A DNA stretch of 64,000 bases from a candidate division WOR-3 bacterium (GCA_020349965.1 CP070705.1:759569-823568); one strand, 5' to 3'; positions 17,913 through 34,140 are shown, numbered from the stretch's first letter. Numbers and translations: made by a program. Notes: generated by a model not told the origin, from the letters alone.

Positions 17913-18952
17913 ATGCCTAACCCATCACGGTTAACAAGTAAATATTGACCGAATCCGTAGCGGTCAACAAATACGAACCTAAGATTGTTCTTGTAATAGA
18001 GCCACACTTCGTACGGGAAGGAATCCAGTTCGTACGGGAACGATTGAATTTCATCGGGGGGTCCGTACCTGACAAAGACCCGGGCCCGGTCACTACGCCA
18101 GCCGCGATCACCATTGGCGAAGCGTTCTTCTGCGTAGGCTATTCGCTCATAGTATTCGATTTCTTTTTCATTGTAGGCCGTATTTGGCGTCGGGTCGAAA
18201 TTCTTCCAGAATGCCACCCAAAGAGAATCTCGTTGTTCGACATCGGCTTGTTTCAGAACGTTCATTTCGGAGGGTGTCGCAATGTATTGAAGCTGGTCGA
18301 CTTTCGTGAACCAGATATTGTCATCCAGGTAAAAAGGGCGCGAGATCTTTATCGGTATGATCGATTCATCTATCTTCCCCGCGTTGCCGTAGACGTCGAG
18401 TTTCAGGTCATAGCCGTCTATAGGTAGACCCGCTACGTCGAATTCGATCGAATCGGGGTAAGTGCCTCGGCGTGCCTTTACTACGCTTTTCGAGTCGGCG
18501 ATCGTGGCTGCGATGCTATCGATATTGTCCTGCTGGTTGAAGACGGTGAATGTGAGTCGGAGTGTGTCTTCTTTTACCGACCAGAATATATTGGCCACAT
18601 TCTTAACTTGGATCAATCGCTGGGTAGATTTGAATATTTCACCGCCGTGCAGATCGAGAATCTTGAGGACAAAGAACTCGCTCTTTCGCGGAATGGAGAT
18701 CTTAACCGAATCTACGATATCGGCAGTATCGTTCAAGACGGTTCGGCGCCAGTAGTCACCGGTCAGTTGATTGGTTTGTTCGTCATACACCGTCACCTGG
18801 ATTTCATATGAGGCGAGAAAGTCTTTCTCTCTTGAGATATATTGAAGCTTACGTTCGGGTATGTTCAAATACAGCACCAATTCTTGTGCACCGTCATTCT
18901 GCACGCGGTTGACTGCTTGGTACTCGATTTGAAAGAAAAGGATAAAGATCAT
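17909..18952 (-). CDS. GWxTD-domain protein (paralog of the downstream gene)
   Basis: 347 aa. The C-terminus 'GWRSDRARVFVRYGPPDEIQ…YEVWLY…FVFVD' is a GWxTD domain. It overlaps the next gene by 4 nt. Confidence 0.7.
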   Translation of the reverse strand: MIFILFFQIEYQAVNRVQNDGAQELVLYLNIPERKLQYISREKDFLASYEIQVTVYDEQTNQLTGDYWRRTVLNDTADIVDSVKISIPRKSEFFVLKILDLHGGEIFKSTQRLIQVKNVANIFWSVKEDTLRLTFTVFNQQDNIDSIAATIADSKSVVKARRGTYPDSIEFDVAGLPIDGYDLKLDVYGNAGKIDESIIPIKISRPFYLDDNIWFTKVDQLQYIATPSEMNVLKQADVEQRDSLWVAFWKNFDPTPNTAYNEKEIEYYERIAYAEERFANGDRGWRSDRARVFVRYGPPDEIQSFPYELDSFPYEVWLYYKNNLRFVFVDRYGFGQYLLVNRDGLGI

Positions 18953-21300
18953 TTCCTCACTCCTATTTTTTTATTGGAGAATATCCGGCTTAATGCCTGG
19001 TCTATCTTCGATGCAAAAATAAAAGAAACTCCGGTACGGACGTGCTTCGGTATTTCCTGCAGATCATTTTTGTTTTCTCTCGGCAGGATGATCGTATTGA
19101 TACCCGCCCTTTTTGCGGCAATCACTTTTTCTTTTATACCGCCCACCGGCAGCACTCGCCCGGAGAGTGTTATTTCGCCAGAAAAGGCGATCTTAGGGTC
19201 GATGGGTTCATTTCTGATCAGTGAAGCAAGCGACATCACCACGGCGAGCCCGGCTGAAGGTCCATCTTTAGGGATGGCGCCTGAAGGAATATGGACGTGC
19301 AATTCCTGGTTCTCAAAGCTATCCTCGGCGATTTTCCAGCGCACGAGTATCGTCTTCAAGTACGACAAGGCAGCCTGGCACGATTCCTTCATGACATCGC
19401 CAAGAAGTCCCGTCAGTATCAGGCCTTTCTTGCCTCGCGTTTTCAGAGACTCGACAAAGAGTATCTCGCCGCCGTATGGTGTCCAGGCAAGGCCGGTGGC
19501 GATGCCGACCTGGCCGGCACGGGCTGCGACGTCTGATACGATCTTCTGTGGGCCGAGCAGTCGATGGAGATTCTTCGCGGCGATCTTGATCTTGCCGTTC
19601 TTGCCTTCGGCCACGCGTTTGGCAACCTTGCGGCAGATAGAACCGATCATCCGTTCGAGATTTCGGACACCAGCTTCCTTTGTGTAATTGCTGATGATGC
19701 TCTTAATCGCTTCTTCTTCGAAGGTTATGTTTGCGGATTTGAGCCCGGCATCATGGATCTGGCGCGGGATCAAATATTTCCTCGCAATCTGGAGCTTCTC
19801 TTCGAGAATATACCCTGGCAATTCAATCATCTCCATACGATCCTTCAAGGCCGGTATTATGGGATCAACGACGTTGCCGGTGGCAATGAACATCACATGA
19901 GAAAGGTCGAAAGGTACTTCGAGATAATGATCCGAGAAAGCACTGTTCTGCTCGGGGTCGAGTACTTCCAGCAAAGCCGAGGAAGGGTCGCCACGGAAGT
20001 CGGCACCGACTTTGTCAATCTCATCTAGCATGAAAACGGGATTGTTAGTGGCGCTGGTTTTGATAGACTGGATGATTCGCCCTGGGAGTGCGCCGACGTA
20101 GGTTCTCCGGTGGCCTCTTATTTCTGCTTCATCACGAATACCGCCCAATGATATGCGTATGAATTTCCGCCCCAGGGCGCGGGCGATCGATTTGCCGAGT
20201 GATGTCTTACCCACTCCAGGTGGACCGATGAAGCAGAGAATCGTCCCTTTGGAATCCGGTTTGAGTTTCTTCACCGCAAGATACTCGAGGATCCGTGTTT
20301 TTACCTTTTCAAGGTCATAGTGGTCTTCATCGAGAATCTCCTGTGCTTGTTTGATGTTCAGGTTGTCCCTGGTGGAAACGGACCAGGGTAGTGATATGAG
20401 CCAGTCGATGTATGTTCGCGAGACTGTATACTCAGCAGCCTGGGGCGGCATTTTGGCTAGACGATCGAGTTCTTTGAGAGCCACTTTATTCGTTTGCTCG
20501 GGCATTTTCGCCTGCAATATCTTCCTTTTCAAATCCTTGATTTCACGAGCATGCTCGTCGGTTTCACCAAGTTCTTTCTGGATCGCCTTCAGTTGTTCAC
20601 GGAGGTAGAATTCTCGTTGACCCTTATCTAGCTCGCTTTTGACGTCAGAGCGTATCTTGGCACCCAGTTCAAGAATGCTGATTTCCTTCTGGAGCATGGG
20701 GATGAGTTTGGCGAAGCGTTCTTTGGGATCCGTGATCTCGAGGAGCATTTGTTTTTCGTTATAGTCGAAATTGATCGTGCTGGCAACGAAATCAACGAGA
20801 CTATCCGCATTCTCCATGTTGAGGACGACCGCGGCATATTCATCTGGCAAATAGGGAGCGAGTGATACGAGGTTTTGGAACATGGCGACGACATTGCGCA
20901 TCATTGCCTCGAGAGCAACTGTTTTACGATAGGTGGGAGAGATGATGTCTATCTTGGCTTTGAGATATGGTTCGTGCTGGCTGAATTCAGCGACTTCGAA
21001 CCGCTTGAGTCCTTTGATCAGGAGGCGGATGGTACCGTCCGGGAATCGTAGCATCTTGGTAATCTGGATGACGCAACCGATCTTGAATACTTCTTCTGGT
21101 TTTGGTTCCTCAATGTCGGGGTTGCGTTGAGTCAATGCTCCCGCGAGTTTGTTGGTCGTGAGTATCTCGTCGATCAATTTCGCGAGTTTCTGCGTATGTA
21201 TGATGAGCGGTACGATCTGGTCGGGAAAGATCACGCCTCCCTTGATCGGTATTATCCCTAGCTCATCAGGTATTTTTATTGATGTATCGATCATGTTCAT
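18949..21300 (-). CDS. lon: ATP-dependent Lon protease
   Basis: 783 aa with a Lon N-terminal domain, a Walker A motif (GPPGVGKTS) and the protease serine motif PKDGPSAG. Confidence 0.95.
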   Translation of the reverse strand: MNMIDTSIKIPDELGIIPIKGGVIFPDQIVPLIIHTQKLAKLIDEILTTNKLAGALTQRNPDIEEPKPEEVFKIGCVIQITKMLRFPDGTIRLLIKGLKRFEVAEFSQHEPYLKAKIDIISPTYRKTVALEAMMRNVVAMFQNLVSLAPYLPDEYAAVVLNMENADSLVDFVASTINFDYNEKQMLLEITDPKERFAKLIPMLQKEISILELGAKIRSDVKSELDKGQREFYLREQLKAIQKELGETDEHAREIKDLKRKILQAKMPEQTNKVALKELDRLAKMPPQAAEYTVSRTYIDWLISLPWSVSTRDNLNIKQAQEILDEDHYDLEKVKTRILEYLAVKKLKPDSKGTILCFIGPPGVGKTSLGKSIARALGRKFIRISLGGIRDEAEIRGHRRTYVGALPGRIIQSIKTSATNNPVFMLDEIDKVGADFRGDPSSALLEVLDPEQNSAFSDHYLEVPFDLSHVMFIATGNVVDPIIPALKDRMEMIELPGYILEEKLQIARKYLIPRQIHDAGLKSANITFEEEAIKSIISNYTKEAGVRNLERMIGSICRKVAKRVAEGKNGKIKIAAKNLHRLLGPQKIVSDVAARAGQVGIATGLAWTPYGGEILFVESLKTRGKKGLILTGLLGDVMKESCQAALSYLKTILVRWKIAEDSFENQELHVHIPSGAIPKDGPSAGLAVVMSLASLIRNEPIDPKIAFSGEITLSGRVLPVGGIKEKVIAAKRAGINTIILPRENKNDLQEIPKHVRTGVSFIFASKIDQALSRIFSNKKIGVRK

Positions 21301-21448
21301 CTCTGTTCTATAACGTCTTCGTCGAGCTATTCATGCAAAATTTGCCCCCAAATCGCGCGTTTTCAATATAGAAGGCAACGGCCGGCTAACATCCATTGTT
21401 TGGACAATACGCGGTTTCTAATGTTTATCCCGGTTTCCTTATCTATCT

Positions 21449-21877
21449 TCATTCTCCCTCAATGGTTATAATCTTCTCCCTCATCATACGGAGCTGGATA
21501 GTCAGAATGCCGTTTCGCAAATCATATTGATATTCATGTGGTTCGATCGGCATTGGAAAGTCTATCCGCCGGTGAAATTTGCCGAAGGGTATTTCCAGAT
21601 TGTGGAAAACACAGTGGTCTTCAGTGATCCCCTGCTGCAAAATTCGGGTGCCGGTTACTATCATATATCGGCTTCGGAGGAAGACTGAAATTTCTTTCTC
21701 CGTCACACCGGCCAGTTCGAGGTGGATAATTGTGCTCTCACTCGTAACGTAAAGATTGTAAAGCGGCTGCCAGTTCGTAAGTTCTGAAAATTCCGTGTTT
21801 GTCTCGTATTCTAAATCCGCGTCCGTAACGAACCTTATCCGCACTCTTTGTTCATTGTTCGAAAGCGCATCCTTCAT
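21449..21877 (-). CDS. Hsp20/alpha-crystallin-family small heat-shock protein
   Basis: 142 aa with an alpha-crystallin domain pattern (…FHRRIDFP…GILTIQL…). It lies 7 nt downstream of the HEAT-repeat gene. Confidence 0.75.
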   Translation of the reverse strand: MKDALSNNEQRVRIRFVTDADLEYETNTEFSELTNWQPLYNLYVTSESTIIHLELAGVTEKEISVFLRSRYMIVTGTRILQQGITEDHCVFHNLEIPFGKFHRRIDFPMPIEPHEYQYDLRNGILTIQLRMMREKIITIEGE

Positions 21878-21884
21878 TTTCTAC

Positions 21885-24080
21885 CTATGATTCAGTTTCT
21901 TCTTTGGCCTCGGTCGTTATGCGCTGGAGAACATCTTGGGCAGTGGCCGCGATAAAGCGATTCCTGCTGTTTGCGGACTTCTGGAGTGCTTGCATTGCCT
22001 TTGGCGTGGCTATCTGTGCAAGAGCCGTTAGCGCAGCTGCTTTCGTTGGCAAGAGCACAGCGCGTTTGAGCAAGGCACGTTCTCTGACGATGGATGTCAG
22101 AGCATTGATGACCGATTCTTCTTTACTCTTGGCGAGGGCCTCTATTACGGCAGCCCTGAATTGTTCATCTGTTTCATTCGGGATCGCCTTCTGCCTCTTC
22201 AGCCATTGCAGTACCTGGGGGAGCTTGTGTTTGAAATCGTCTGGTGCCAGGCATTTCATTGCTTCCAGCGTCACGTATGGATACTTGCTGTTCAAAGCCT
22301 TCTTTAGGTATCCGACCGATTTCTCGCCGCCGATTTTGCTGAGACTTGAAACGACTTCGAGCTGTATTTGCGGTCTGTCTTCGTCTATCAGGGCGCCTAT
22401 ATTGTCGATCGTTGCCTCCGCCTTCAACTCGCCGAGAATGAAAACTCCGTTGCGACGGGCGTACCACTCATCTGCCTGGAGCAGCTTGAGTATTTCGGGG
22501 ATGGCCTTGTCGCTCATTCGTTTCAAGGTGTCGAGGATCTTCATGCGGACCGCGTAGTTGTCAATTTCGCGGAGGGCTTGAACTAAAAGAGGCGCAGAGG
22601 TGTCGGCGAGGGCGATCAAAGCTTCTCTCGCTTCGGCATAGGTACCTGCGGCCCACAAGGAAGATAGGAGTTCCGGCATATACGTGGGGTCACGCGTCTC
22701 TCCAATGGCTTTTATCACTACCCGTTTTCGCTCCAAGAATATCGTATCTTTACGCATTAGATACTTGGCGAATTTTTTTGCGATGAACTCCATCACTTCG
22801 GTATTGCCGCGGTCGCGTGCTTTAATGTAGAGAATTTTCAACCCTCCGATTGCTTTGGCGAATGCATTCAGGTCCTGTTCTGCTTCGGCCATGGCATCGA
22901 GGCGGTTTGCCATCAGGCAGACGAGGTCGTAATTCTCGGCTTCAAAAAGCCGGTCTGCGAACGCGACTAACTGATCGATCGTGTCGATTCGCTCTTCGGT
23001 CGAGTTGCTGCGCAGTGCAGGAAAATGGCTTTTCATTTCCATTTCGAGGTTCTTGATGTTGTATTTCATCGCGGCCTCAGGTCCCCTTGTTGCTTTAACA
23101 CGTTTCATCAGGCGATCGAGGAAGTCGCTCGTGTAGGTTTCCGGTGCACGAGTGCCAAGGGTCGTCAGGATGTCTGGCAATTTGCTGCTTGTCACGTTCT
23201 TCAGAATGTCTACTATGTCATTCTCGGCGTTAGGTGATCGTTTCTTAGCGATCATCATAACGATGTCAACGATGTCATCATCTTCCATCGTAGGCACCAA
23301 CTTTCTGAACATTTCGGCAAGTTTCGCGTTCTCGCTGCGGTATCTTATAATATTCTTCTTCACAGAAGGCGACAGAATGGCCAGTATTCTGGAGAAAACG
23401 AGCGAGTACTCGTTCCATCTTTCCTCGCCATAGCGGTCCATGACCATCAGCGCAAGTTTCTCCAATCCGGTAAGGATTTTCTCGGTCTGTATTTCTGTAG
23501 TATCTTCACTCGTGACGCCGAGGACACCGAGAAAGCTGCCCAACTCCTTGAGCCTTTCCTCTTCGGTCTTGGGTTCCTGGGCCGTTATCATCGATTCGAG
23601 GAAGTTATCCCAATCCAATTCCCTGAATTCCGAGTCAGAGGTGACGACGCCCACGCGATAAATATTCACCTTGATGCCGGTGATATTGCGGGTCCGCATC
23701 AGGGTCGCGATGTCTCCGTAGTCATCGATCTCCGCAGGTTGGAGGGCCATCACCGAAAAGAACTCATTGAGTTCCCATTCACTGACTTCTGTGTTGAATG
23801 TGATGCTATTCACTCCCACTTGGTTGAACCGGTCGACGAGGAATTTAACGATCGAAAGCTTCTGGGAATCGAAGCGTTCTTCATCGATCTTCAGGACGCT
23901 CTCGATCACAACGATACTCACGACACGCTTTTCGATACGGAGTTCTTCGAAGACCTTATGCACGCGCTCGACGGTCAATTTGAGTGAGGGATGACCCTCT
24001 GGGTAGGTGCGCGAAAGGTATACACCCATTCGCAGGAGTTTGAGCAGATCATCATACAGTTTCTTGACGTTTTCTTCCAT
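21885..24080 (-). CDS. Large HEAT/PBS-lyase-repeat protein of unknown function
   Basis: 731 aa. The C-terminal half has repeated HEAT-like units (…AIPEILKLLQADEWYARRNGVFILGEL…VRERALL…). No recognisable catalytic or cNMP-binding motif was seen. Its start abuts the stop of the small cyclase gene. Confidence 0.6.
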   Translation of the reverse strand: MEENVKKLYDDLLKLLRMGVYLSRTYPEGHPSLKLTVERVHKVFEELRIEKRVVSIVVIESVLKIDEERFDSQKLSIVKFLVDRFNQVGVNSITFNTEVSEWELNEFFSVMALQPAEIDDYGDIATLMRTRNITGIKVNIYRVGVVTSDSEFRELDWDNFLESMITAQEPKTEEERLKELGSFLGVLGVTSEDTTEIQTEKILTGLEKLALMVMDRYGEERWNEYSLVFSRILAILSPSVKKNIIRYRSENAKLAEMFRKLVPTMEDDDIVDIVMMIAKKRSPNAENDIVDILKNVTSSKLPDILTTLGTRAPETYTSDFLDRLMKRVKATRGPEAAMKYNIKNLEMEMKSHFPALRSNSTEERIDTIDQLVAFADRLFEAENYDLVCLMANRLDAMAEAEQDLNAFAKAIGGLKILYIKARDRGNTEVMEFIAKKFAKYLMRKDTIFLERKRVVIKAIGETRDPTYMPELLSSLWAAGTYAEAREALIALADTSAPLLVQALREIDNYAVRMKILDTLKRMSDKAIPEILKLLQADEWYARRNGVFILGELKAEATIDNIGALIDEDRPQIQLEVVSSLSKIGGEKSVGYLKKALNSKYPYVTLEAMKCLAPDDFKHKLPQVLQWLKRQKAIPNETDEQFRAAVIEALAKSKEESVINALTSIVRERALLKRAVLLPTKAAALTALAQIATPKAMQALQKSANSRNRFIAATAQDVLQRITTEAKEETES

Positions 24081-24727
24081 CAGCCCTTCAGTTTCAGTTT
24101 ATACTCGTATGCCTTTACGCCAAAAGACTCTTCGACGAATTCGCCAATTTCTCTGTATGCGAAGAAACCCTTGGTTACCTTGTGGAGATTCTCGCCAACG
24201 AGTATGGTATTGCTCACCGCGTTCTTCTGTAGTATTTGACTCTTGCGAAAGCCTTTGGTGAGTATCAATGCATTTCTCAAATCAGGATGCAGGTTGAAAA
24301 TTGACGCAGGTTCGATCTCGGCGCCAACCTTGAGGCCGAGCGGACTTTTTACACTGCCTTTCTTATTGAAATCGTATAGCCGGTTGAACATCTCCTCAGC
24401 CGTGAGTATTGCCATGTGCGGTGCAAATCCTGTTTCGAGGTCGAGGCCGAAGATACTTACGATCTCATCACCAACTACTTGATATATGGTTCCTTTGTTC
24501 TTGGCGATTATCTTCGCGAACATATCGAAGATATCGTTCAATACGGCCATGACGTCCTCAGCTATCATGGTTTCGCTCATTCTAGTGAAGCCAGATAGAT
24601 CGACGCGGAGAAATGTTAACTTCAGATCTTCGAAAGGTGACGTGATATCATCATGGAGTGGCGCGCCACACCACGGACAGAAATTGAAGGTCTGGGTGAT
24701 CTCTTTATTACAGTTGCCGCAGATCAT
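24080..24727 (-). CDS. Small class III nucleotidyl cyclase with an N-terminal zinc ribbon
   Basis: 215 aa. The zinc ribbon reads 'CGNCNKEI…CPWCG'. Cyclase motifs are present: 'FLRVDLSGFT' supplies metal-Asp 1 and 'VVGDEIVSIFG' supplies metal-Asp 2. The C2-type Asn/Arg box is altered to 'GENLHKVTK'. Confidence 0.7.
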   Translation of the reverse strand: MICGNCNKEITQTFNFCPWCGAPLHDDITSPFEDLKLTFLRVDLSGFTRMSETMIAEDVMAVLNDIFDMFAKIIAKNKGTIYQVVGDEIVSIFGLDLETGFAPHMAILTAEEMFNRLYDFNKKGSVKSPLGLKVGAEIEPASIFNLHPDLRNALILTKGFRKSQILQKNAVSNTILVGENLHKVTKGFFAYREIGEFVEESFGVKAYEYKLKLKG

Positions 24728-24728
24728 A

Positions 24729-27700
24729 CTAAATCTGGAGTAGCGCGGAATACTCGGGGCGGTGGATATAGTGTTTCCGGTTGGCGTCGCTGAGCCTCGA
24801 TTTTATGTCATCATAGACGACGAGTGCCTTTCGACCGTAATATCGTGCCCTTTCGATATCTTTGTTCTCAGAAAATATTTGAGAGATACGATATAAGGCG
24901 TCAGCGATAAGCGGCGGTAGCTTCATTCGTTCTGCTAGGTCGAGCGCCCTTCGTGCATTTTCCATGTTGTGACTTGCATCGATCTTCGAGAGAAGTTTGT
25001 AGCACTGGAATTCAATCTCGCGTTGATTCAACTTTTCCGCGATTCTAATGCTATTGATGACGAAGTCATTAGCCTTCCTGTAATCGTGGCGATTATAGTG
25101 AATGAGGGCTTTCTTGAGATCTATTTCGGCCAGAAGGTTTTCCCTGATGAGGAATGAGATTTTTTTATCGACATCCTTCAAATACCCCGTAACGTGACCG
25201 GAATCGCCGTTAAGCGAATAGATGTAAGCGAGATCGAGTGCCGATCTGATGTATGCATCGAAGCTGCCGATCGAATCAGCTGTCATGAGGCACTCATTGA
25301 GCGCATCCTTGGCTTTTTGTACATTCCATATCTCGTAGTCAATACCGGCGATCAGGTATTGTAGTTCGATGTTCTTTCGTATATCTTCGGTTTCAACGAG
25401 CATCTCCAGCCCGTGGTTCAGGTAGTCGAGAGCAATTTCATAATTACCCAGTCCCTTGTGTAGTTTTGAAAGGTTAAGGAGGCATAGTATCTCTGCTTCT
25501 TTGATCCTGTTGGCGCGTGCAGTCCGCCAGCTGAGATTATAATTGAGAAGACACTTATCGTACTCATACCTAGCAGCGTATAGCATTCCAAGATCCGCAT
25601 ACAAGATGGGAGTGATATTAACCACCTCGCTGTCGTATTTTTCAATGGTCTCGATGAGGAGTTCTTCGGCCTGTTTCATGTGGTTCAGCAGTATGAGTCC
25701 GTATGCTTCTCTTTCAGCAAAAAGGACCACATTTTCCCGGTCACCATCCTGCTGTGCCTGAAGTAGTCTCTCCCGAGCCATCTTCTCCATTTTGCTGATG
25801 TCTCCTTTGATTTCGTATATGTCGATCAAATTGAGCATGATGTCGCGGTACATATCCCCTGGTAAGGGGAAGCCGAATTCCTTATTGATGGTCATGACCT
25901 GCTCATAGAATGATACTGCCTGATCGATTGCGTAGAGGTTCTTGGCCTTGTCACCAGCGAGTTTATAGTACTTTGTTGCGTGTTCATGCTGGTCGGCAGC
26001 CAGGTAATGTCTCGCCACATCTTCATAGAAAGATGAAAGATGATGCGAATAGATTTGCTCGAATAGATTTGCCACTTTGAGGTGAATCTCCTTCCGTTTA
26101 CGGACGGGTAAAACAGTGTAGGCGGCATCCTTTAGCAGGTTATGCCTGAAAAGGTATACGGGATCTTCGCCATCTGACGATAGGACCACGTATCCTTCGG
26201 CGACAAGATGATCGAGGTGATCTTTGAGATCGGGCCGCGTGAGCAGTTCTTTCAGGATGCGCAGGCTGAAACGGTAACCGATCACCGACGCATAATCGAC
26301 TATGAGTCGCGCATCCGGAGCAAGTGAATCGATCGTAGACATGACCAAGCCGTATAGGTCATCGAGAAAGACAAGCGCCTGGTCTTTTGCCAGGTACCAC
26401 TTCCCACTTTCTTGTTTGATAGCTTGGTTACGTCGCGTGTTTCGTATTGCTTCAATTGTGAAAAGCGGATTACCACCCGCTTCGCGGTATATGAAATCCG
26501 AGAGCTCGGTATCAACGTTGCCGAGGATATGCCGGACGAGAGCATGGATATCTTGTTTTGTAAGAGGTCTTAGATCCATTTCATGAACGTCGGCGGATAT
26601 ACCTTCAAGGTGATATTCCGGGGCGTTTATCAATAGTAACATCACTGGATCATCGGTCAATTCAGACATGAGATAGGTGATAAGTTCCTTGGACATTATG
26701 TCTGCCTGGCCGAATTCCTCGAAGATTATGATCATTGGTTTCTTACGGCATTCGGTTCGGATTATATTCCGCACCGATGCGTATATCTCTTCATTCACCA
26801 TGCGCATTTCTTCGGAATGCAATCGTCCGATATCGGTCATTAGCAGGTGCTTCATGCCTTTTGCCAGGGTCGGGTTAAGATTTCTCTCGCTCACCAGTGC
26901 ATCGATGCGTTTGCCCATGATTTCTTTGCTGTCAAGTTCGTGGAGGTTCAGGATGTCCCTGAGCAACGTTCGAAACGGGAAGTAAGGTGATTGTGTGTTG
27001 ACCGAGCAGTTTGTCTCGAAACACGTCACTTCATCATTGGCATTTAGACGGACCTCCAACTCCTCCTTCAGTCGAGTCTTGCCAATACCCAATTGTCCGT
27101 TGATTACGCAGTACACCGCTCCTTGAATCAGTGATTCCTGTGCGAGGGTGAGCAGTTGCGTCAGTTCAGATTCTCTGCCGAACAGAGGCATTCGCATTGG
27201 TTCTACTGTGCGCGGCGTAGTGCGGATTTTCATGAGACGGTAGATATCGACCTTGGTCTTTCTCCCTTTGACCGTCTGCTCGCCAACATGTTCGGCATTG
27301 ATGTAACGGAAGACTGCATTATAGGTCGTTCTGCTCATGAGGATCTCACTCTGCTGGCTGATTTCTGTTAGTCGGGCAGCGATGTTGATGGTATCTCCGA
27401 TCACGGTTAAGAAAGGTGATTCCTTGAGCACGAACCCAAAGAAAGCCCGACCGGTGTTCAGTCCGATTCTGAGATCGATATCGCGCAAGACCTTCGACCC
27501 TTGCTTTGCTTTTGTCCACCAGTCACGAATTCGACTAACACAACGTGTCGCCCTTAGCGCATCGTCGTGATGCGTATGGGGTGCTCCAAAGATGCCGAGG
27601 ATCCGAAAGTCGGGGATGATTCGATTCGAGGTGCCGTTGTATTCGTGGATGATGGCTTCGATGTTAGTGAGGAAATCCTGAATATGATCCTTCATTACCG

Positions 27701-27905
27701 GATACGTCTCTTTCTTGATGAGTCTGTCGATACCGCTGAGGTTCACAAAGAATACGGTGAGCAATCTGAGTTCACCTCCCAGCAGCCGGAGGCGTTCGGA
27801 CTCGACGGCCCGAATCATTTCGGCCTTCAATGCTGCACCGCATCTTGGGCAGAATAAAGCGCCGTCGGGTGTGTCAGGATAATTACAGTGTGTACATCTA
27901 ATCAT
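24729..27905 (-). CDS. Multidomain protein: zinc ribbon, class III nucleotidyl cyclase, STAND/AAA NTPase and a C-terminal TPR-like array
   Basis: 1058 aa. The zinc ribbon reads 'CTHCNYP…CPRCG'. The cyclase domain has an intact 'RIGLNTG…TVIGDTINIAARL' box, but the first metal-Asp is replaced by Asn in 'FFVNLSGID'. A Walker A motif 'GQLGIGKT' follows, then about 450 aa of TPR-like helical repeats. No C-terminal HTH is obvious. Confidence 0.75.
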   Translation of the reverse strand: MIRCTHCNYPDTPDGALFCPRCGAALKAEMIRAVESERLRLLGGELRLLTVFFVNLSGIDRLIKKETYPVMKDHIQDFLTNIEAIIHEYNGTSNRIIPDFRILGIFGAPHTHHDDALRATRCVSRIRDWWTKAKQGSKVLRDIDLRIGLNTGRAFFGFVLKESPFLTVIGDTINIAARLTEISQQSEILMSRTTYNAVFRYINAEHVGEQTVKGRKTKVDIYRLMKIRTTPRTVEPMRMPLFGRESELTQLLTLAQESLIQGAVYCVINGQLGIGKTRLKEELEVRLNANDEVTCFETNCSVNTQSPYFPFRTLLRDILNLHELDSKEIMGKRIDALVSERNLNPTLAKGMKHLLMTDIGRLHSEEMRMVNEEIYASVRNIIRTECRKKPMIIIFEEFGQADIMSKELITYLMSELTDDPVMLLLINAPEYHLEGISADVHEMDLRPLTKQDIHALVRHILGNVDTELSDFIYREAGGNPLFTIEAIRNTRRNQAIKQESGKWYLAKDQALVFLDDLYGLVMSTIDSLAPDARLIVDYASVIGYRFSLRILKELLTRPDLKDHLDHLVAEGYVVLSSDGEDPVYLFRHNLLKDAAYTVLPVRKRKEIHLKVANLFEQIYSHHLSSFYEDVARHYLAADQHEHATKYYKLAGDKAKNLYAIDQAVSFYEQVMTINKEFGFPLPGDMYRDIMLNLIDIYEIKGDISKMEKMARERLLQAQQDGDRENVVLFAEREAYGLILLNHMKQAEELLIETIEKYDSEVVNITPILYADLGMLYAARYEYDKCLLNYNLSWRTARANRIKEAEILCLLNLSKLHKGLGNYEIALDYLNHGLEMLVETEDIRKNIELQYLIAGIDYEIWNVQKAKDALNECLMTADSIGSFDAYIRSALDLAYIYSLNGDSGHVTGYLKDVDKKISFLIRENLLAEIDLKKALIHYNRHDYRKANDFVINSIRIAEKLNQREIEFQCYKLLSKIDASHNMENARRALDLAERMKLPPLIADALYRISQIFSENKDIERARYYGRKALVVYDDIKSRLSDANRKHYIHRPEYSALLQI

Positions 27906-28035
27906 TGGTCATCGATCCTTTTTCTCATATCCACGATTTCGACCCATTGGAAAGATTATAGGCAAATTTCAAGATACGTCAAGATTCTCCGCATCTCAGC
28001 CGTTGAATATGTGTGTGGGTTGACTATAATCATCG

Positions 28036-29052
28036 ATGAAGGAGAACTTCCGGCGCCATTCTCTTTGCCAGGCAAGGGATACAGTCGTTTCAATCGGGCT
28101 CGAAGAATACCGAGCTGAGCAGATCTTCAAGTGGATCTGGCAGAAGAACGCCGAAGATTTTTCGAAGATGACAAATCTCTCCCGGGCACTACGTGAAGAT
28201 CTTGACCGGCGTTATTCGATCGCCGGACTGGAGATTGCGGGCCTGGTTCGGGAAGGGCAGGGTGCGCATAAGTATCTGCTCAGGCTCGAGGATGGGAAGG
28301 AGATTGAGTCGGTATTTATGCGCGAAGGCCGCAGGCGAACGATCTGTGTGTCGTGTCAGGTTGGGTGTCCTTTAGGTTGTCGGTTCTGCGCAACAGGGCT
28401 CATCGGTTTGACGCGAAACCTCTATGCTTACGAAATTGCCGATCAGGTCCGGGTCATCCAGAAGGCCGTAGGTGAGAAGTGTACCAATGTCGTTTTTATG
28501 GGCATGGGCGAACCGTTCCTTAATTTCGTAGAGGTCGTGGCGGCGCTCGAAATCATCTCATCGCCGCTTGGTTTAGGTGTCGGTCGCCGGCATACTACGT
28601 TGTCCACGGTCGGTCTTGTTGAAGGTATGGAGGCTTTGCTGAGATCGCCCATCCGCGCAAAACTGGCGGTCTCATTGAATTTCGCGGATGAGGAACAAAG
28701 GAGAGAATATATGCCGGCGGCAAGATACAATTCACTGTTAGATATAATGAAAGTGGCCAAAGCATATTCGTGTGAAAAAGAAATGGTCACCTTTGAATAC
28801 GTGATGATCAAGGGTGTCAACGATCGCTTGAGTGATGCGAAACGTCTGGTGAGATTGTTGAGGGGCATACCGTCGAAGATCAATCTCATACCCTACAACG
28901 AGCACCCGCGCCTGCCCTTTAGAAGACCTGCTGACCAGAGGATCGAGAAGTTCTACGAATACCTTTTGAATTCGCATCATACCGTCGTAATCAGGAAATC
29001 AAAGGGGCAGAAGATTCTTGCTGGTTGTGGCCAGTTGAGCGGGAAGGCATAG
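28036..29052 (+). CDS. rlmN: 23S rRNA (adenine2503-C2)-methyltransferase, radical SAM
   Basis: 338 aa. The N-terminus 'EQIFKWIWQK…MTNLSRALRE' and the radical-SAM motif 'CQVGCPLGCRFCATG' match RlmN. Confidence 0.85.
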   Translation: MKENFRRHSLCQARDTVVSIGLEEYRAEQIFKWIWQKNAEDFSKMTNLSRALREDLDRRYSIAGLEIAGLVREGQGAHKYLLRLEDGKEIESVFMREGRRRTICVSCQVGCPLGCRFCATGLIGLTRNLYAYEIADQVRVIQKAVGEKCTNVVFMGMGEPFLNFVEVVAALEIISSPLGLGVGRRHTTLSTVGLVEGMEALLRSPIRAKLAVSLNFADEEQRREYMPAARYNSLLDIMKVAKAYSCEKEMVTFEYVMIKGVNDRLSDAKRLVRLLRGIPSKINLIPYNEHPRLPFRRPADQRIEKFYEYLLNSHHTVVIRKSKGQKILAGCGQLSGKA

Positions 29053-29157
29053 AGACACGGTGCTCAAAACACGATTCATTACATACGATATTTCTGCTGA
29101 CGGCTGCTTGAGTGATCACGACACTTTTAACATGGTCGTCCTTACACGATAATCGAG

Positions 29158-29433
29158 ATGGGTGAATGCGTTCGTGTCCGTATGATAATATGGGGTGTTG
29201 TGCAAGGTGTTTTCTTTCGTGCGAATACCGTAGAGAAAGCGCGATCACTGAATCTATCCGGGTGGGTGCGGAATCTACCCGATGGCAGTGTAGAAGTTGT
29301 TGCCGAGGGTCCGCGCGACACGTTGGTCGACCTCGTAAGATGGTGTCACAGAGGACCGGTGGAGGCAAGGGTCGATACCGTCGATATCGAGTGGCAATCC
29401 GCGATTGGTGAGAGAGGATTCGAAATCCACTGA
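29158..29433 (+). CDS. acyP: Acylphosphatase
   Basis: 91 aa with the motifs 'VQGVFFR…GWVRNLPDGSVE'. Confidence 0.85.
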   Translation: MGECVRVRMIIWGVVQGVFFRANTVEKARSLNLSGWVRNLPDGSVEVVAEGPRDTLVDLVRWCHRGPVEARVDTVDIEWQSAIGERGFEIH

Positions 29434-29511
29434 CGAATTAGAATACGCAGTTCGCTCCGTAGAATCCGGTGTACGTGCCGTGTTCGTCGCGGGCTACGGT
29501 CCGTGCCTATC

Positions 29512-29539
29512 TTGACTTCGGCGGGAAATTCTGTATAAT
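29512..29539 (+). promoter_or_regulatory. σ70-type promoter candidate upstream of the leuC-like cluster
   Basis: TTGACT (29512-29517), a 16-nt spacer, and TATAAT (29534-29539) preceded by TG. A ~100 nt leader follows, with a GGAGG site before the ATG at 29641. Confidence 0.55.
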
Positions 29540-29640
29540 CATATGTTATCTGTGACGTACCGTGTTGATGCGCTAAGCATCTGATAGCTACTTGCTTACG
29601 GAGCAGTCCACGTTTAACCATAGATTGGAGAATTGGAGGC

Positions 29641-30948
29641 ATGATGGGAAAGACCATGGCGGAGAAGATTCTATCCGAGAAGAGCGGCAAGGATGCACAC
29701 GCAGGCGATATCGTGATCGCTCATGTCCATGTTGCTGCTTTTCAGGACGGCACAGGGCCGCTAGGCGTACGTCAGCTCCAGAAAATGAGTTTGGAAGAGG
29801 TCCGGGCGCGCCGGTCAATACTATTCATCGATCATGCGGCGCCGTCGCCACGCAAGGAGCTATCGAATGATCATATGTTATTACGTGAATTCAGCCGAAA
29901 AACCGGCGCCATATTGTCTGAAATTGGTGAAGGGGTGATCCATCAGCGGTTGGTTGAGTCCTACGCGCGCCCCGGTGATGTTGTCATCGGCGCCGATTCG
30001 CATACCTGTACATCGGGTGCGCTGGGCGCCTTTGCTACAGGCATGGGTTCTACTGACGTGGCAATCGGTATGGCAATGGGAAAGACATGGTTCAAGGTTC
30101 CCGAGACGTATCGAATCGAGGTGAAGGGTGATTTTAAGCCCGGGGTCGGCTCAAAAGATCTCATCCTTTACCTCATTGGTATGTTGGGCGCTGATGGTGC
30201 AACGTACAAAGCCTTGGAATTCGGCGGCCCGGCGATCGATAAGATGTCCATGGAGTCACGTTTTGTGTTGTCCAATATGGCGGTTGAGGCAGGCGCCAAG
30301 GCCGGCTTGATTGCATCGGACAGGAAGACAAGACAGTATCTAAAGGCACGCGGTCGCGTCAAGGATTGGCGTGCATTGGCACCTGAGGAGGGCGCGAAGT
30401 ATGAGCGCGTCATCGTTGTCGATGCCCGCAAGCTGGTACCCCAGGTCGCATTCCCGCATACTGTTGATAACACCAAGGACATTGACAAGGCACGCGGGAT
30501 AAAGATCGACCAGGTCTTCATCGGTACCTGCACTAACGGCCGCATTGAAGACCTGAGAATCGCTGCTAGGATTCTGAGGGGTAGAGAACGTGCTCCTCAT
30601 ACAAGACTCGTTGTCGTTCCGGCGTCACGCGAAATATATCTTGAAGCGCTCGAAAGTGGATTGTTGAATATCTTCGTGCGCGCTGGCGGCATTATTATGG
30701 GTCCGGGATGCGGTCCATGTGTCGGCGTCCATCAGGGTGTGCTTGGGGACGGCGAGGTCTGTCTGTCGACGGCAAACCGCAATTTCCGCGGACGAATGGG
30801 CAATCCCGACGGTTTCGTCTACCTCGCATCGCCGGCTACTGCAGCCTTCAGTGCGATAAAAGGGCAGATCAGTGATCCGAGAGATTTCTTCGCGAGGCGG
30901 CAGCACAAGAAAGTTGCCAAGCCCGGAAAAGCGCGAAAGAAGAGGTAG
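29641..30948 (+). CDS. LeuC-family hydro-lyase large subunit (3-isopropylmalate dehydratase / homoaconitase type; possibly an aconitase here)
   Basis: 435 aa of the short archaeal-type LeuC length. It has Fe-S ligand motifs (CTSGALGAF, GTCTNGR, GPGCGPCVG). Its genomic context is citrate synthase and IDH rather than leuA/leuB. Confidence 0.8.
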   Translation: MMGKTMAEKILSEKSGKDAHAGDIVIAHVHVAAFQDGTGPLGVRQLQKMSLEEVRARRSILFIDHAAPSPRKELSNDHMLLREFSRKTGAILSEIGEGVIHQRLVESYARPGDVVIGADSHTCTSGALGAFATGMGSTDVAIGMAMGKTWFKVPETYRIEVKGDFKPGVGSKDLILYLIGMLGADGATYKALEFGGPAIDKMSMESRFVLSNMAVEAGAKAGLIASDRKTRQYLKARGRVKDWRALAPEEGAKYERVIVVDARKLVPQVAFPHTVDNTKDIDKARGIKIDQVFIGTCTNGRIEDLRIAARILRGRERAPHTRLVVVPASREIYLEALESGLLNIFVRAGGIIMGPGCGPCVGVHQGVLGDGEVCLSTANRNFRGRMGNPDGFVYLASPATAAFSAIKGQISDPRDFFARRQHKKVAKPGKARKKR

Positions 30949-30990
30949 GAAAATTAATAGATAGTTCTGTAGGAAGCAAGGAGGAAGAAG

Positions 30991-32271
30991 ATGGCTAACA
31001 TGATAGACAAACTTGCAGGGACAATTCCCGCACTGCGGGATGACATCAAGGCTTTTGTTAAGCAGAACGGTGACAAGGTTATATCTGAGGTTACGGTTGC
31101 ACAGGCGTACGGGGGGATGCGAGGCGTGAAGGCACTTGTTTGCGACACCTCGGTCGTGCCTCCGGACAAGGGGCTCATTATTCGTAGTCACCCGATCGGT
31201 GAGTTGAAAGAAAAACTGCCAGAAGCAGTATTCTATTTGCTTGTCACCGGTGAGATGCCGGATGATGCTGCTGTACAAGCCTTGACAAAGGACTTTGGTA
31301 GCCGTGCCATAGTGCCTGATTATGTCTGGAAGACATTGGCCGCGATGCCAAAGGATTCACACCCGATGGTAATGTTCAGTTTGGGTATTTTGGCCATGGA
31401 GAAAGAATCGGTATTCAGGAAAAAGTACACCGAAGGTATGAAGAAAGAAGATTATTGGCAATCGACGCTCGAAGACTGCCTCAATCTCATCGGCAAATTA
31501 CCCAATCTTGCAGCCGGTATATACAGGATGAGATTTGACAAGGGACCTCGGATCGAGCCCGAGCCAAAGCTCGACTGGGCGGCGAACTACGCGCATATGC
31601 TCGGTATCTCTGATCCCAGTGGTGAGTTTGCCAATCTCATGAGACTCTATATGGTGCTGCATTCTGATCATGAAGGTGGTAACGTGAGTGCCCATACGTG
31701 CCACTGCGTTGGTTCGGCTCTTTCTGATCCTTACTACGCTGTCTCGGCCGGTTTGAACGGTCTGGCTGGTCCCTTACACGGGCTAGCAAATCAAGAATGC
31801 CTGCGCTGGGTTATCATGGTCAAGGAGAAATTCGGCGGTGTTCCAACGGATGAGCAGTTGAAGCAATTTGCCTGGGATACCCTCAATTCGGGGCAGGTCA
31901 TTCCCGGCTATGGTCACGCCGTACTGAGGATCACAGACCCGCGTTTTGACGCCTTCCGTGAATTCGGCGCCCGTGTGTGTGCCGATGATCCCTATTTCCA
32001 GATTGTAGATAAGGTATTCAGGGTCGTGCCGGGAGTGCTGAAGGAGCATGGCAAAGCTAAGGATCCATGGCCCAACGTCGATGCCGCTTCGGGTTGTCTG
32101 CTCTATCATTTTGGTATGACGGAATTCCAATATTACACCGTCCTCTTCGGCGTGTCGAGGGCGATGGGGATGTGTGCTCAGTTGATCGTCAGCCGTGCGC
32201 TAGGAGAGGCAATTGAGCGTCCAAAGTCAGTGACCACGGGTTGGGTCAAGCAGGCAGTGGCCAAAGGATGA
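30991..32271 (+). CDS. Citrate synthase, mitochondrial-like (type I) form
   Basis: 426 aa. The signature 'GYGHAVLRITDPR' is the eukaryotic/mitochondrial-type citrate synthase signature; the common bacterial form is GFGHRVY. Confidence 0.85.
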   Translation: MANMIDKLAGTIPALRDDIKAFVKQNGDKVISEVTVAQAYGGMRGVKALVCDTSVVPPDKGLIIRSHPIGELKEKLPEAVFYLLVTGEMPDDAAVQALTKDFGSRAIVPDYVWKTLAAMPKDSHPMVMFSLGILAMEKESVFRKKYTEGMKKEDYWQSTLEDCLNLIGKLPNLAAGIYRMRFDKGPRIEPEPKLDWAANYAHMLGISDPSGEFANLMRLYMVLHSDHEGGNVSAHTCHCVGSALSDPYYAVSAGLNGLAGPLHGLANQECLRWVIMVKEKFGGVPTDEQLKQFAWDTLNSGQVIPGYGHAVLRITDPRFDAFREFGARVCADDPYFQIVDKVFRVVPGVLKEHGKAKDPWPNVDAASGCLLYHFGMTEFQYYTVLFGVSRAMGMCAQLIVSRALGEAIERPKSVTTGWVKQAVAKG

Positions 32272-32295
32272 TGTAGTCCAGTCAGGAGGTAAGTC

Positions 32296-32796
32296 ATGGT
32301 CCTTAGGGGAAAGGCCTGGAAGTTTGGCGATAGCATATCAACTGATTTGATCTGCCCAGGCAGATTTTTCCATCTGCGTTCGAACCTACCCGAACTCGCC
32401 AAGCATGTTCTTGAAGATGCTGATCCGAATTTTGCGTCGCGGATGTCGAAGGGAGATTTCGTCGTGGCGGGCAATAATTTCGGCTTGGGTAGTTCCCGTG
32501 AACATGCACCTACGATAATAAAATTGGCTGGAGTTTCCGCCGTGCTGGCCAAGTCATTTGCGAGGATTTTCTACCGTAATGCAATAAATGTAGGCCTTCC
32601 GCTGCTTGAGTGCGATACCGATAAGATCGAATTGAGCGACGAAATAGAAGTTGATCTGGCAGCCGGTATGATAAAGAATGTTTCAAAAGGTATCGAACTC
32701 AAAGCCCATCCGCTCCCAAAAGCGATGCTTAATATATTGAATGATGGTGGACTTCTCGCCCATATCGAGAAACACGGTGGTTTCAAATTAGATTAA
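32296..32796 (+). CDS. LeuD-family hydro-lyase small subunit
   Basis: 166 aa with a LeuD/aconitase swivel-domain motif (GDSISTDLI…GNNFGLGSSREHAP). Confidence 0.8.
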   Translation: MVLRGKAWKFGDSISTDLICPGRFFHLRSNLPELAKHVLEDADPNFASRMSKGDFVVAGNNFGLGSSREHAPTIIKLAGVSAVLAKSFARIFYRNAINVGLPLLECDTDKIELSDEIEVDLAAGMIKNVSKGIELKAHPLPKAMLNILNDGGLLAHIEKHGGFKLD

Positions 32797-34124: not shown

Positions 34125-34140
34125 GTTATTTCATTCTGAT

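What the first reader, a model, noticed from the sequence alone, without database searches (positions are those of the whole stretch)
21449..27905. Cyclase–STAND–TPR protein, HEAT-repeat protein and Hsp20/Lon form one transcriptional block: a candidate novel signalling or defence module
The 1058-aa protein has the tripartite layout of NLR-like/Avs-type STAND proteins: an N-terminal enzymatic domain, a central P-loop NTPase with Walker A 'GQLGIGKT', and a C-terminal TPR sensor array. Its N-terminal domain is a nucleotidyl cyclase preceded by a zinc ribbon.

Unlike the mycobacterial cyclase-ATPase-TPR-LuxR regulators, no C-terminal HTH is visible. The small partner cyclase follows it, then a 731-aa HEAT-repeat protein with no recognisable catalytic motif, with start and stop juxtaposed at 24080. 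An Hsp20 and Lon come next on the same strand with tiny gaps.

A sensor-coupled second-messenger generator linked to an orphan HEAT-repeat protein and proteostasis genes is not a described system. The HEAT protein could be the receptor or effector of the cyclic nucleotide, though it has no canonical cNMP-binding domain. Alternatively the locus is a stress-responsive regulator.
Basis: inference. Interest (0 to 1): 0.7.

Follow-up and report, generated by a model that had tools for sequence, protein, structure and literature searches.

The report
Split cyclase with STAND and HEAT partner
Three tightly linked genes, conserved in every WOR-3 relative examined, appear to encode a signalling enzyme whose two halves must pair to make a cyclic nucleotide, controlled by an ATP-driven switch and a helical-repeat partner protein; it is not a defence system, and the heat-shock genes next to it are only neighbours.

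Summary
The unit is three genes, not five: a 1058-aa zinc-ribbon–cyclase–STAND NTPase–TPR protein, a 215-aa zinc-ribbon–cyclase protein and a 731-aa HEAT protein. They occur in that order, with junctions of -1 to +5 nt between the two cyclase genes, in every related locus with enough DNA (38 of 38). The flanks are housekeeping genes that differ between loci.

Hsp20 and Lon follow only in one close clade, 8 of 38 loci. Lon lies 148 bp downstream of Hsp20.

The two cyclase domains have lost complementary catalytic residues:
- The small protein keeps both metal-binding Asp and lacks the Asn/Arg pair.
- The large protein lacks the first Asp and keeps Thr, Asn and Arg.

This is the C1/C2 pattern of mammalian and soluble adenylyl cyclases, so I infer one heterodimeric active site.

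The HEAT protein starts with an unannotated ~150-aa domain carrying a YPxxHP motif. In other phyla the whole HEAT protein is fused behind GGDEF–STAND proteins, exactly where the TPR arm sits here. It is therefore more likely a sensor or adaptor arm than a cyclic-nucleotide receptor.

There is no HTH, no defence-model hit and no defence-island context. Verdict: a new variant of STAND-regulated cyclases. The biochemistry is untested.

The parts
27955..27982 (-). sigma-70-like promoter candidate (TTGACG-16-TATAAT, 11 of 12) about 50 nt upstream of the large gene. A second one faces the other way toward rlmN at 28003..28030.
   Evidence: This is a consensus match only. The number of sites in the region is not above the shuffled expectation.
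24729..27905 (-). Large subunit, 1058 aa: zinc ribbon, C2-like cyclase domain, STAND NTPase, TPR-like arm.
27828..27896 (-). Zinc ribbon of the large subunit (aa 4-26, CxxC...CxxC).
   Evidence: Zn_Ribbon_1, weak; alignment
27225..27770 (-). Cyclase homology domain of the large subunit (aa 46-227), C2-like. First metal Asp replaced (N55). D99, T167, N174 and R178 are invariant and K213 is nearly so.
   Evidence: It aligns to the C2 domain of human sAC (residues 272-433 / 273-434).
25965..27188 (-). STAND NTPase core (aa 240-647). AAA_16 covers 240-423 with Walker A GQLGIGKT and Walker B IIIFEEF, followed by a helical region.
   Evidence: (TIGR03903 segment, 4.7e-50)
24732..25964 (-). TPR-like helical repeat arm (aa 648-1058). 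No HTH.
   Evidence: TPR_12 and TPR_MalT, below cut-off; PADLOC TPR, 4e-05
24080..24727 (-). Small subunit, 215 aa: zinc ribbon (aa 3-24) plus C1-like cyclase domain (aa ~35-204). D43, D87 and K133 are invariant. GFxKSQxLQKNA replaces the Asn/Arg motif.
21885..24080 (-). HEAT partner protein, 731 aa.
23616..24080 (-). N-dom (aa 1-155): an unannotated alpha/beta domain with a YPxGHP motif. pLDDT is about 78-95 over aa 1-140, followed by a disordered linker (aa 141-154, pLDDT below 50).
23046..23615 (-). Middle helical region (aa 156-345). Conserved in sequence but modelled with low confidence.
21888..23045 (-). HEAT / PBS-lyase-type solenoid (aa 346-731), pLDDT mostly above 90.
21449..21877 (-). 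Divergent Hsp20-like gene. A neighbour only, not part of the conserved module.
18949..21300 (-). Lon protease. A neighbour only. It is coupled by 4-nt overlaps to two downstream GWxTD genes.

Best explanation
This is a three-protein cytoplasmic signalling module conserved in every related WOR-3 locus examined.

1. Inferred from sequence: the cyclase domain of the large protein (C2-like) and that of the small protein (C1-like) pair head to tail. They form one complete class III active site and one degenerate pseudo-site, as in mammalian membrane and soluble adenylyl cyclases. Here the two halves are separate polypeptides, each preceded by a zinc ribbon. The small subunit supplies the two metal-binding Asp. 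The large subunit supplies the base-contacting Arg/Lys and Thr, the transition-state Asn and Arg, and the phosphate-binding Lys.

2. Inferred from family knowledge: the STAND NTPase of the large subunit is the ATP-dependent on/off switch. It is held off by its C-terminal repeat arm and released by an unknown cytoplasmic cue.

3. Inferred from gene fusions: the N-dom-HEAT protein binds this switch as a second, trans-encoded sensor or adaptor arm. It is not the receiver of the nucleotide.

The output is a cyclic nucleotide, most likely cAMP. Hsp20 and Lon are not part of the module.
For: Co-conservation:
- Order, sizes and junctions are kept in 6 of 6 distant loci and in every one of 38 loci with upstream DNA. 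Large-to-small gaps are -1 to +5 nt.
- The block is also kept in three deeper lineages, L048, L053 and L055.

Complementary residues (34 large and 42 small orthologues):
- Large: position 55 is N21/S7/D3/Q2. D99, T167, N174 and R178 are present in 34/34, and K213 in 31/34.
- Small: D43, D87 and K133 are present in 42/42, and Q83 in 41/42. There is no Asn/Arg motif.
- The same split holds in the deep lineages.

Domain affinities:
- The large domain aligns to the C2 half of human sAC, and sAC C2 also carries FVN at that site.
- The small domain hits the C1 domain of type V cyclase.
- Relatives carry a tandem C1-C2-AAA_16-TPR paralogue whose best PDB match is sAC (5.8e-22).

Fusions:
- All six proteins of 1321-1438 aa that were scanned among the representative hits are GGDEF-AAA_16-N-dom-HEAT.
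- P0202 residues 170-603 are collinear with large residues 214-647 (5e-18). P0202 residues 639-1385 are collinear with the whole HEAT protein, 11-728 (6e-10).
- More than 55 such clusters exist in several phyla, next to a sister set with TPR arms.
- N-dom also occurs in histidine kinases and heads a CheW-CheY-CheA operon.

A promoter-like site lies upstream of the large gene.
Against: - No biochemical or structural test of the heterodimer was possible.
- The base-contacting position of the large subunit varies (R18/K8/Q4 and others), so substrate and product are uncertain.
- The second metal Asp is still invariant in the WOR-3 large subunits, which a pure C2 domain would not need.
- The TPR assignment rests on hits below Pfam cut-offs.
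- The role of the HEAT protein is inferred from fusions with a different cyclase type (GGDEF) and from contexts of distant relatives. One relative (L051) sits in a non-signalling context.
- N-dom has no recognisable fold relative, so a nucleotide-binding role cannot be excluded.
Confidence: 0.6

Rival explanations
1. The HEAT protein is the receptor or effector of the cyclic nucleotide made by the cyclase pair.
For: - Strict co-conservation and translational coupling with the cyclase genes.
- N-dom is a conserved domain of unknown function with invariant polar residues: Y26, H30, R39, E46, D120, D123 and N139.
- No fold relative excludes ligand binding.
Against: - No cNMP-binding, GAF or other known nucleotide-sensor domain is present.
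- The same module is fused to diguanylate cyclases, which make c-di-GMP, and it occupies the sensor-arm position of the STAND protein.
- It also occurs with histidine kinases and a Che operon, which use no cyclic nucleotide.
Confidence: 0.15
2. The cyclase domains are pseudo-enzymes. The pair serves only as a dimerisation or nucleotide-sensing module of a STAND scaffold, and no second messenger is made.
For: - Neither chain has a full catalytic set.
- The base-contacting residue is variable.
- In L053 Pfam no longer recognises either cyclase domain.
Against: Across deep divergence, each catalytic residue is kept invariant in exactly one of the two partners. That is the expectation for a working shared site, not for decay.
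Confidence: 0.1
3. In the clade of this window the module is functionally tied to proteostasis: a stress-responsive operon with Hsp20 and Lon.
For: - Same strand, with a 7-nt gap to Hsp20 in the window.
- No terminator-like site between the genes.
- Hsp20 and Lon follow in 8 related loci.
Against: - Hsp20 and Lon are absent from the other 30 loci and from all deeper lineages.
- In most of the 8 loci the tblastn match to Hsp20 starts about 100-125 nt after the end of the HEAT match.
- Lon lies 148 bp downstream of Hsp20 and overlaps the downstream GWxTD genes instead.
Confidence: 0.1
4. It is an antiphage defence system of the Avs/NLR or Pycsar kind.
For: - Effector-STAND-TPR layout.
- Weak PADLOC PycC hits (best 1.9e-08).
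Against: - The PycC hits cover only the generic cyclase fold.
- There is no hit to any STAND defence model, and none for the HEAT protein.
- There is no toxic effector domain.
- One locus per genome was found in the four complete chromosomes scanned.
- The block is conserved across every related locus found, with housekeeping flanks.
Confidence: 0.03

Closest known systems
Soluble adenylyl cyclase (sAC, ADCY10) and bacterial sAC-like proteins: C1-C2-STAND(P-loop)-repeat region
   Same: - One active site is built from a C1 half that donates two Asp and a C2 half that donates Lys/Thr/Asn/Arg.
- C2 carries Asn at the first Asp position (FVN).
- Thr sits at the substrate position, the class IIIb signature.
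- A STAND NTPase follows C2 (PMC12802110 for the predicted STAND domain of full-length sAC).
   Different: - C1 is a separate 215-aa protein encoded after the C2-STAND gene, not fused in front of it.
- Both halves carry a zinc ribbon.
- The sAC bicarbonate-site residues (K95 and R176 of C1, positions recalled from the sAC literature and not checked here) correspond to Q83 and I165.
- An obligatory HEAT partner gene is present.
- Whether the split arose by fission or by duplication is undecided.
Mycobacterial cyclase-ATPase-TPR-LuxR proteins (Rv0386, Rv1358, Rv2488c)
   Same: An N-terminal class III cyclase domain followed by an AAA_16-type NTPase and helical repeats. A non-canonical residue sits at the substrate Lys position (Rv0386; from my own knowledge of the literature).
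   Different: There is no C-terminal LuxR HTH. The cyclase is not self-sufficient. A partner half-cyclase and a HEAT protein are present.
GGDEF-AAA_16-N-dom-HEAT and GGDEF-AAA_16-TPR proteins (unnamed; Deltaproteobacteria, Planctomycetota, Omnitrophota and others)
   Same: The same STAND core (5e-18 over 434 residues) and the same N-dom-HEAT module (collinear over the whole 731-aa protein).
   Different: The output is a diguanylate cyclase rather than a class III cyclase. The HEAT module is fused in cis and replaces the TPR arm. In the window both a cis TPR arm and a trans HEAT protein are present.
TOMM system kinase/cyclase fusion protein (TIGR03903)
   Same: The cyclase-STAND-helical segment matches (4.7e-50, residues 74-670 against model positions 317-917).
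   Different: The score is 170 bits against a cut-off of 706. There is no kinase domain and no TOMM genes nearby.

Membership tests
Class III nucleotidyl cyclase (PF00211) | Cyclase homology domain above the Pfam gathering score | tested here: met
   Large 45.9 bits and small 26.1 bits, against a cut-off of 21.9
Class III nucleotidyl cyclase, homodimeric bacterial type | All six catalytic residues (two Asp, Lys, Asp/Thr, Asn, Arg) in one chain | tested here: not met
   The large chain lacks the first Asp. The small chain lacks Lys, Thr, Asn and Arg.
Class III nucleotidyl cyclase, heterodimeric C1/C2 type | Catalytic residues split in a complementary way between two different domains | tested here: met
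   Small: D43, D87 and K133 invariant. Large: T167, N174 and R178 invariant and K213 in 31/34. This holds over 34 and 42 orthologues and three deeper lineages.
Class III nucleotidyl cyclase, heterodimeric C1/C2 type | Physical heterodimer with cyclase activity | not testable with these tools
   No complex prediction or assay is available.
sAC / ADCY10-type cyclase | Tandem C1-C2 in one polypeptide followed by a STAND region | tested here: not met
   C2 and STAND are in the large protein and C1 is a separate downstream gene. A true tandem paralogue exists in relatives.
sAC / ADCY10-type cyclase | Bicarbonate-site Lys and Arg in C1 (residue identities K95/R176 recalled from the sAC literature) | tested here: not met
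   The equivalent positions are Q83 (41/42) and I165 (I/V/L/A).
STAND NTPase (AAA_16 / MalT-like) | P-loop NTPase with Walker A and an acidic Walker B, followed by a helical region and a C-terminal repeat arm, with an N-terminal effector | tested here: met
   AAA_16 at 56.8 bits against a cut-off of 32.6. GQ[LM]GxGK[TS] and hhhhE[EN]F are conserved. TPR hits are weak.
STAND NTPase (AAA_16 / MalT-like) | Inducer- and ATP-dependent oligomerisation | not testable with these tools
   The mechanism is taken from the family (PMC6468293).
LuxR/MalT-type transcription regulators | C-terminal HTH DNA-binding domain | tested here: not met
   No HTH family at E <= 0.01. The C-terminus is a conserved helical repeat ending in RPEYxxLL.
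Avs / NLR-like or Pycsar defence systems | Match to defence-system models, a toxic effector, and a variable island context | tested here: not met
   Only generic PycC hits and no hit for the HEAT protein. Flanks are housekeeping genes and every related locus found keeps the block.
HEAT / PBS-lyase-type repeat proteins | HEAT repeats by profile and by predicted structure | tested here: met
NblB / CpcE bilin lyase-type proteins | NCBIfam equivalog score | tested here: not met
   35 bits against a cut-off of 300.

The most novel reading that the evidence does not exclude
N-dom-HEAT is a previously undescribed sensor or adaptor module that plugs into one family of STAND NTPases, either fused in cis (GGDEF-STAND-N-dom-HEAT) or encoded in trans, as here. 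On this reading the WOR-3 triad is a natural three-part version of a soluble-adenylyl-cyclase-type enzyme. Pairing of a free C1 subunit with a STAND-tethered C2 is the regulated step. The degenerate pseudo-site, with its invariant KSQxLQKNA motif, would be a regulatory pocket. This would give a bacterial model for the still unexplained STAND region of sAC.
Probability: 0.3. Interest if true: 0.7.

Novelty: new variant of a known kind. Interest (0 to 1): 0.55.

Why it matters
Cyclase-STAND-repeat proteins are common in bacteria, and the same layout exists in human soluble adenylyl cyclase. How the STAND part controls the cyclase is unknown. A recent study of full-length sAC found no regulator specific to it and suggested that a binding partner or regulatory metabolite might be missing from the purified preparations (PMC12802110).

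This locus offers a natural dissection of that layout:
- The two catalytic halves are separate genes.
- A partner protein is strictly co-inherited with them.
- The same partner module is fused to STAND diguanylate cyclases in other phyla.

The analysis also defines a widespread, unannotated ~150-aa signalling-associated domain with a YPxxHP motif. It gave 372 representative clusters at E <= 0.001.

All of this is inference from sequence in an uncultured phylum, and it needs heterologous biochemistry.

Tried and rejected
- **AlphaFold database.** The afdb50 library was not available.
- **Family models for N-dom.** Pfam and NCBIfam gave nothing at permissive E-values.
- **N-dom profile against PDB sequences.** It matched only a de novo designed protein.
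- **Protein search with the N-dom profile.** It returned only short fragments.
- **Truncated alignment rows.** I rebuilt the alignment without them.
- **Literature.** Searches for WOR-3 cyclases, for natural bacterial heterodimeric class III cyclases and for HEAT partners found nothing specific. The text held for PMC2447327 lacked the terms I searched for.
- **Origin of the split.** Pairwise BLASTP of the four cyclase domains could not decide between fission of a tandem gene and duplication.
- **Rfam.** No RNA family was found in the window.
- **Rejected readings.** Defence system, LuxR/MalT regulator and a five-gene operon with Hsp20/Lon, for the reasons given in the report.
Full report
**What is in the window**

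The region carries five same-strand ORFs on the minus strand:
- a 1058-aa protein (27905..24729)
- a 215-aa protein (24727..24080)
- a 731-aa protein (24080..21885)
- a 142-aa protein (21877..21449)
- after a 148-bp gap, Lon (21300..18949)

- The large protein has a zinc ribbon, a class III cyclase domain (45.9 bits), an AAA_16 STAND-type NTPase (56.8 bits; Walker A GQLGIGKT) and weak TPR hits. No HTH is found.
- The small protein has a zinc ribbon and a cyclase domain (26.1 bits).
- The 731-aa protein has HEAT_2 and HEAT_PBS repeats in its C-terminal half only.
- The 142-aa protein is a divergent Hsp20.

An identical HEAT protein sits on a 2.3-Mb contig of a candidate division WOR-3 bacterium. 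The rest of the window is housekeeping: gyrA, Nuo-like subunits, UvrB, TCA enzymes, RlmN and an AcrB-type pump. Rfam found no RNA family in the window.

**The conserved unit is three genes**

The HEAT protein has 97 homologues, most of them full length (719-742 aa, with a few truncated), at 43-88% identity. Where a source names the organism it is mostly WOR-3, with one TA06 bin and several unnamed 'bacterium' MAGs.

In six distant contigs the same three genes recur in the same order, with sizes of 1034-1061, 212-215 and 726-735 aa. Their flanks differ: CysRS/AsnA, IMPDH, RlmN, PolX and a peptidase.

A scan of one genome per species found 39 loci, labelled WOR-3, 'Ca. Stahlbacteria', TA06 DG_78 or unnamed MAGs.
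- tblastn finds the small gene directly upstream of the HEAT gene in all 38 loci that have upstream DNA. The large gene lies upstream of that wherever the contig reaches.
- In 30 loci with both genes complete, the large-to-small gap is -1 to +5 nt.
- Three deeper lineages, found through a profile search, also keep the triad: L048, L053 and L055.

Hsp20 and Lon follow only in the eight loci whose HEAT protein is at least 68% identical to the window's. In the window Lon is 148 bp from Hsp20. Lon overlaps the first of two downstream GWxTD genes by 4 nt, and that gene overlaps the second by 4 nt. Hsp20 and Lon are therefore neighbours in one clade, not members of the module.

A near-consensus sigma-70-like site (TTGACG-16-TATAAT) lies about 50 nt upstream of the large gene. 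This is a consensus match only.

**The two cyclase domains are complementary halves**

I aligned both domains to solved class III cyclases and tallied 34 large and 42 small orthologues.

| Catalytic position | Large subunit | Small subunit |
|---|---|---|
| First metal Asp | lost: N21/S7/D3/Q2 at position 55 | D43, 42/42 |
| Second metal Asp | D99, 34/34 | D87, 42/42 |
| Base-contacting Lys | variable, mostly basic: R18/K8/Q4 | Q83, 41/42 |
| Substrate Thr | T167, 34/34 | absent |
| Transition-state Asn | N174, 34/34 | absent |
| Transition-state Arg | R178, 34/34 | absent |
| Phosphate Lys | K213, 31/34 | not assessed |

The small subunit also keeps K133 in 42/42. It carries a conserved GFxKSQxLQKNA stretch where the Asn/Arg motif would be.

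In the three deeper lineages the pattern is sharper still. The large subunit has K, G or E at the first Asp and often lacks the second, but keeps Thr, Asn and Arg (Lys in one case). The small subunit keeps both Asp and lacks Asn/Arg.

By established knowledge of class III cyclases, each active site is built from the Asp pair of one domain and the Lys, Asp/Thr, Asn and Arg of the other. Neither homodimer could then be complete, and the heterodimer would have exactly one complete site. That is the C1/C2 arrangement of mammalian membrane cyclases and sAC. Bacterial class III cyclases such as Mycobacterium tuberculosis Cya are homodimers with two nucleotide sites (PMC9433096).

Further points are consistent with this:
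- The large domain aligns to the C2 half of human sAC (chain residues 272-433 / 273-434).
- sAC C2 has the same FVN at the first Asp position.
- The small domain's hits include the C1 domain of type V adenylyl cyclase.
- WOR-3 relatives also carry a 1282-1284-aa paralogue with tandem C1-C2-AAA_16-TPR. Its best solved match is sAC, in two stretches (5.8e-22).

The triad therefore works like an sAC-type enzyme whose C1 is a separate subunit. It is not a member of that family in the strict sense. The domains are on two chains, and the positions equivalent to the sAC bicarbonate site are Q83 and I165. The identity of that site as K95 and R176 of C1 is recalled from the sAC literature, not checked here.

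The two zinc-ribbon-plus-cyclase N-termini are paralogous (27.6% identity over 152 aa). Whether the arrangement arose by duplication or by fission could not be decided.

**The HEAT protein**

AlphaFold2 with 36 homologues gave a mean pLDDT of 80.9. The model has four parts:
- a confident alpha/beta N-terminal domain (aa 1-140)
- a disordered linker (aa 141-154)
- a conserved but poorly modelled helical region (aa 155-345)
- a confident HEAT solenoid (aa 350-730)

The N-terminal domain (N-dom) has no Pfam or NCBIfam model. It has no fold or sequence relative among solved structures.

A profile of the first 350 aa, searched against 1.84 billion representatives, found 372 clusters at E <= 0.001. 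Most matches cover only N-dom (positions ~7-152). Its signature over 144 copies is Y26 (92%), H30 (86%), P31 (83%) and G122 (81%).

N-dom occurs in several settings:
- at the N-terminus of many HEAT proteins
- in PAS-histidine kinases
- with MshEN/T2SSE, HD and GAF domains
- in the middle of 1320-1440-aa GGDEF-AAA_16-N-dom-HEAT proteins

**The fusion that links HEAT to STAND**

In fusion protein P0202, residues 170-603 are collinear with the large protein's 214-647 (the STAND core, 5e-18). Residues 639-1385 are collinear with the entire HEAT protein, 11-728 (6e-10). The HEAT module thus begins where the TPR arm begins in the window's large protein.

More than 55 clusters share this architecture, with named sources in Deltaproteobacteria, Planctomycetota, Omnitrophota and Vulcanimicrobiota. 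They rank just ahead of a sister set of GGDEF-AAA_16-TPR proteins. A more distant N-dom-HEAT protein heads a CheW-CheY-CheA-CheC/X operon.

Taken together, N-dom-HEAT behaves as an input or adaptor module that can be coupled to different outputs: a class III cyclase, a diguanylate cyclase, a kinase or a Che pathway. This argues against it being the receptor of one particular nucleotide. One relative sits in an unrelated Fe-S gene context, so the family is not restricted to signalling operons.

**Proposed mechanism**

Shown here:
- gene order
- strict co-inheritance
- complementary residue conservation
- the fusion architecture

Inferred:
- The large and small subunits form a C2·C1 heterodimer with one active site.
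- The STAND core acts as an ATP-dependent switch, autoinhibited by its repeat arm, as described for TPR-bearing STAND proteins (PMC6468293).
- The N-dom-HEAT protein binds this switch as a trans-acting second arm that senses or relays an unknown cytoplasmic cue.
- Activation promotes or stabilises productive C1·C2 pairing, and a cyclic nucleotide is made. cAMP is likely, given Thr167 and a mostly Arg/Lys base-contact position. The variability at that position leaves the product open.

The paired zinc ribbons may help bring the two N-termini together. This is speculation.

**Rivals**

- Defence system: rejected (confidence 0.03). PADLOC gives only generic PycC hits and nothing for the HEAT protein. 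There is no effector, flanks are housekeeping, every related locus found keeps the block, and each of the four complete chromosomes scanned has one locus.
- LuxR/MalT-type regulator: rejected, because there is no HTH.
- HEAT protein as nucleotide receptor: not excluded (about 0.15).
- Pseudo-enzyme scaffold: possible (about 0.1), but hard to reconcile with residue-by-residue complementarity over deep divergence.
- Link to Hsp20/Lon: at most clade-specific (about 0.1).

**Novelty and verdict**

Cyclase-STAND-repeat proteins are known, including sAC, the mycobacterial Rv0386 group and TIGR03903. Three features appear to be new. My literature searches found no description of them.
- A natural two-polypeptide C1/C2 class III cyclase tied to a STAND switch.
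- An obligatory N-dom-HEAT partner.
- The N-dom family itself.

I rate this a new variant of a known kind, with interest 0.55 and confidence 0.6 in the overall model. It matters because the function of the STAND region of sAC-type cyclases is still open (PMC12802110), and this system separates the parts genetically.

Noticed in passing
L001:1-926 (-) and L003:1-1135 (-): About 5 kb upstream of the triad, on the opposite strand, two distant WOR-3 relatives carry a 1282-1284-aa protein with tandem C1-C2 cyclase domains, AAA_16 and TPR. Its best solved match is human soluble adenylyl cyclase (5.8e-22, two stretches). No copy lies inside this window.
   Followed up: partly
window 28036..29052 (+) and intergenic 27906..28035: rlmN is transcribed divergently from the large cyclase gene across a 130-bp spacer holding two back-to-back sigma-70-like sites. 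A match to RlmN lies upstream, on the opposite strand, in 21 of the 38 related loci with upstream DNA (one match is weak and cut by a contig end). That is far more widely than Hsp20/Lon.
   Followed up: partly
window 15965..21300 (-): Lon overlaps a GWxTD-domain gene by 4 nt, and that gene overlaps a second GWxTD gene by 4 nt. A NYN-domain gene follows. The same run is kept in L006. A protease translationally coupled to two GWxTD proteins is unexplained.
   Followed up: no
L048, L053, L005: Purine nucleotide genes recur next to the triad in distant lineages: purH directly upstream in L048 and L053, guaA directly downstream in L053 with overlapping coordinates, and IMPDH downstream in L005. This may be chance, or a link between the cyclase and purine nucleotide supply.
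   Followed up: no
L049:696-6665: A distant N-dom-HEAT protein (897 aa) sits at the head of a CheW-CheY-CheA-CheC/X operon, and none of the called genes in the 11 kb fetched had a methyl-accepting chemoreceptor domain hit. It may stand in for the receptor.
   Followed up: no
window 39374..41437 (-): A 687-aa ORF has GreA/GreB domains only at residues 537-684. The first ~530 residues have no Pfam match at E <= 1e-5.
   Followed up: no
window 24323..24721 and 27462..27896 (-): The zinc ribbon plus the first half of the cyclase domain of the large and small proteins are recognisably paralogous (27.6% identity over 152 aa, E about 5e-5). This points to an internal duplication.
   Followed up: partly
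L005:19489-22196: A GGDEF-AAA_16-TPR protein (over 1046 aa) lies about 7 kb downstream of the triad in one WOR-3 relative. These genomes carry several STAND-linked nucleotide cyclases.
   Followed up: no
window 1..64000: No Rfam family reaches its gathering score anywhere in the 64-kb window.
   Followed up: yes
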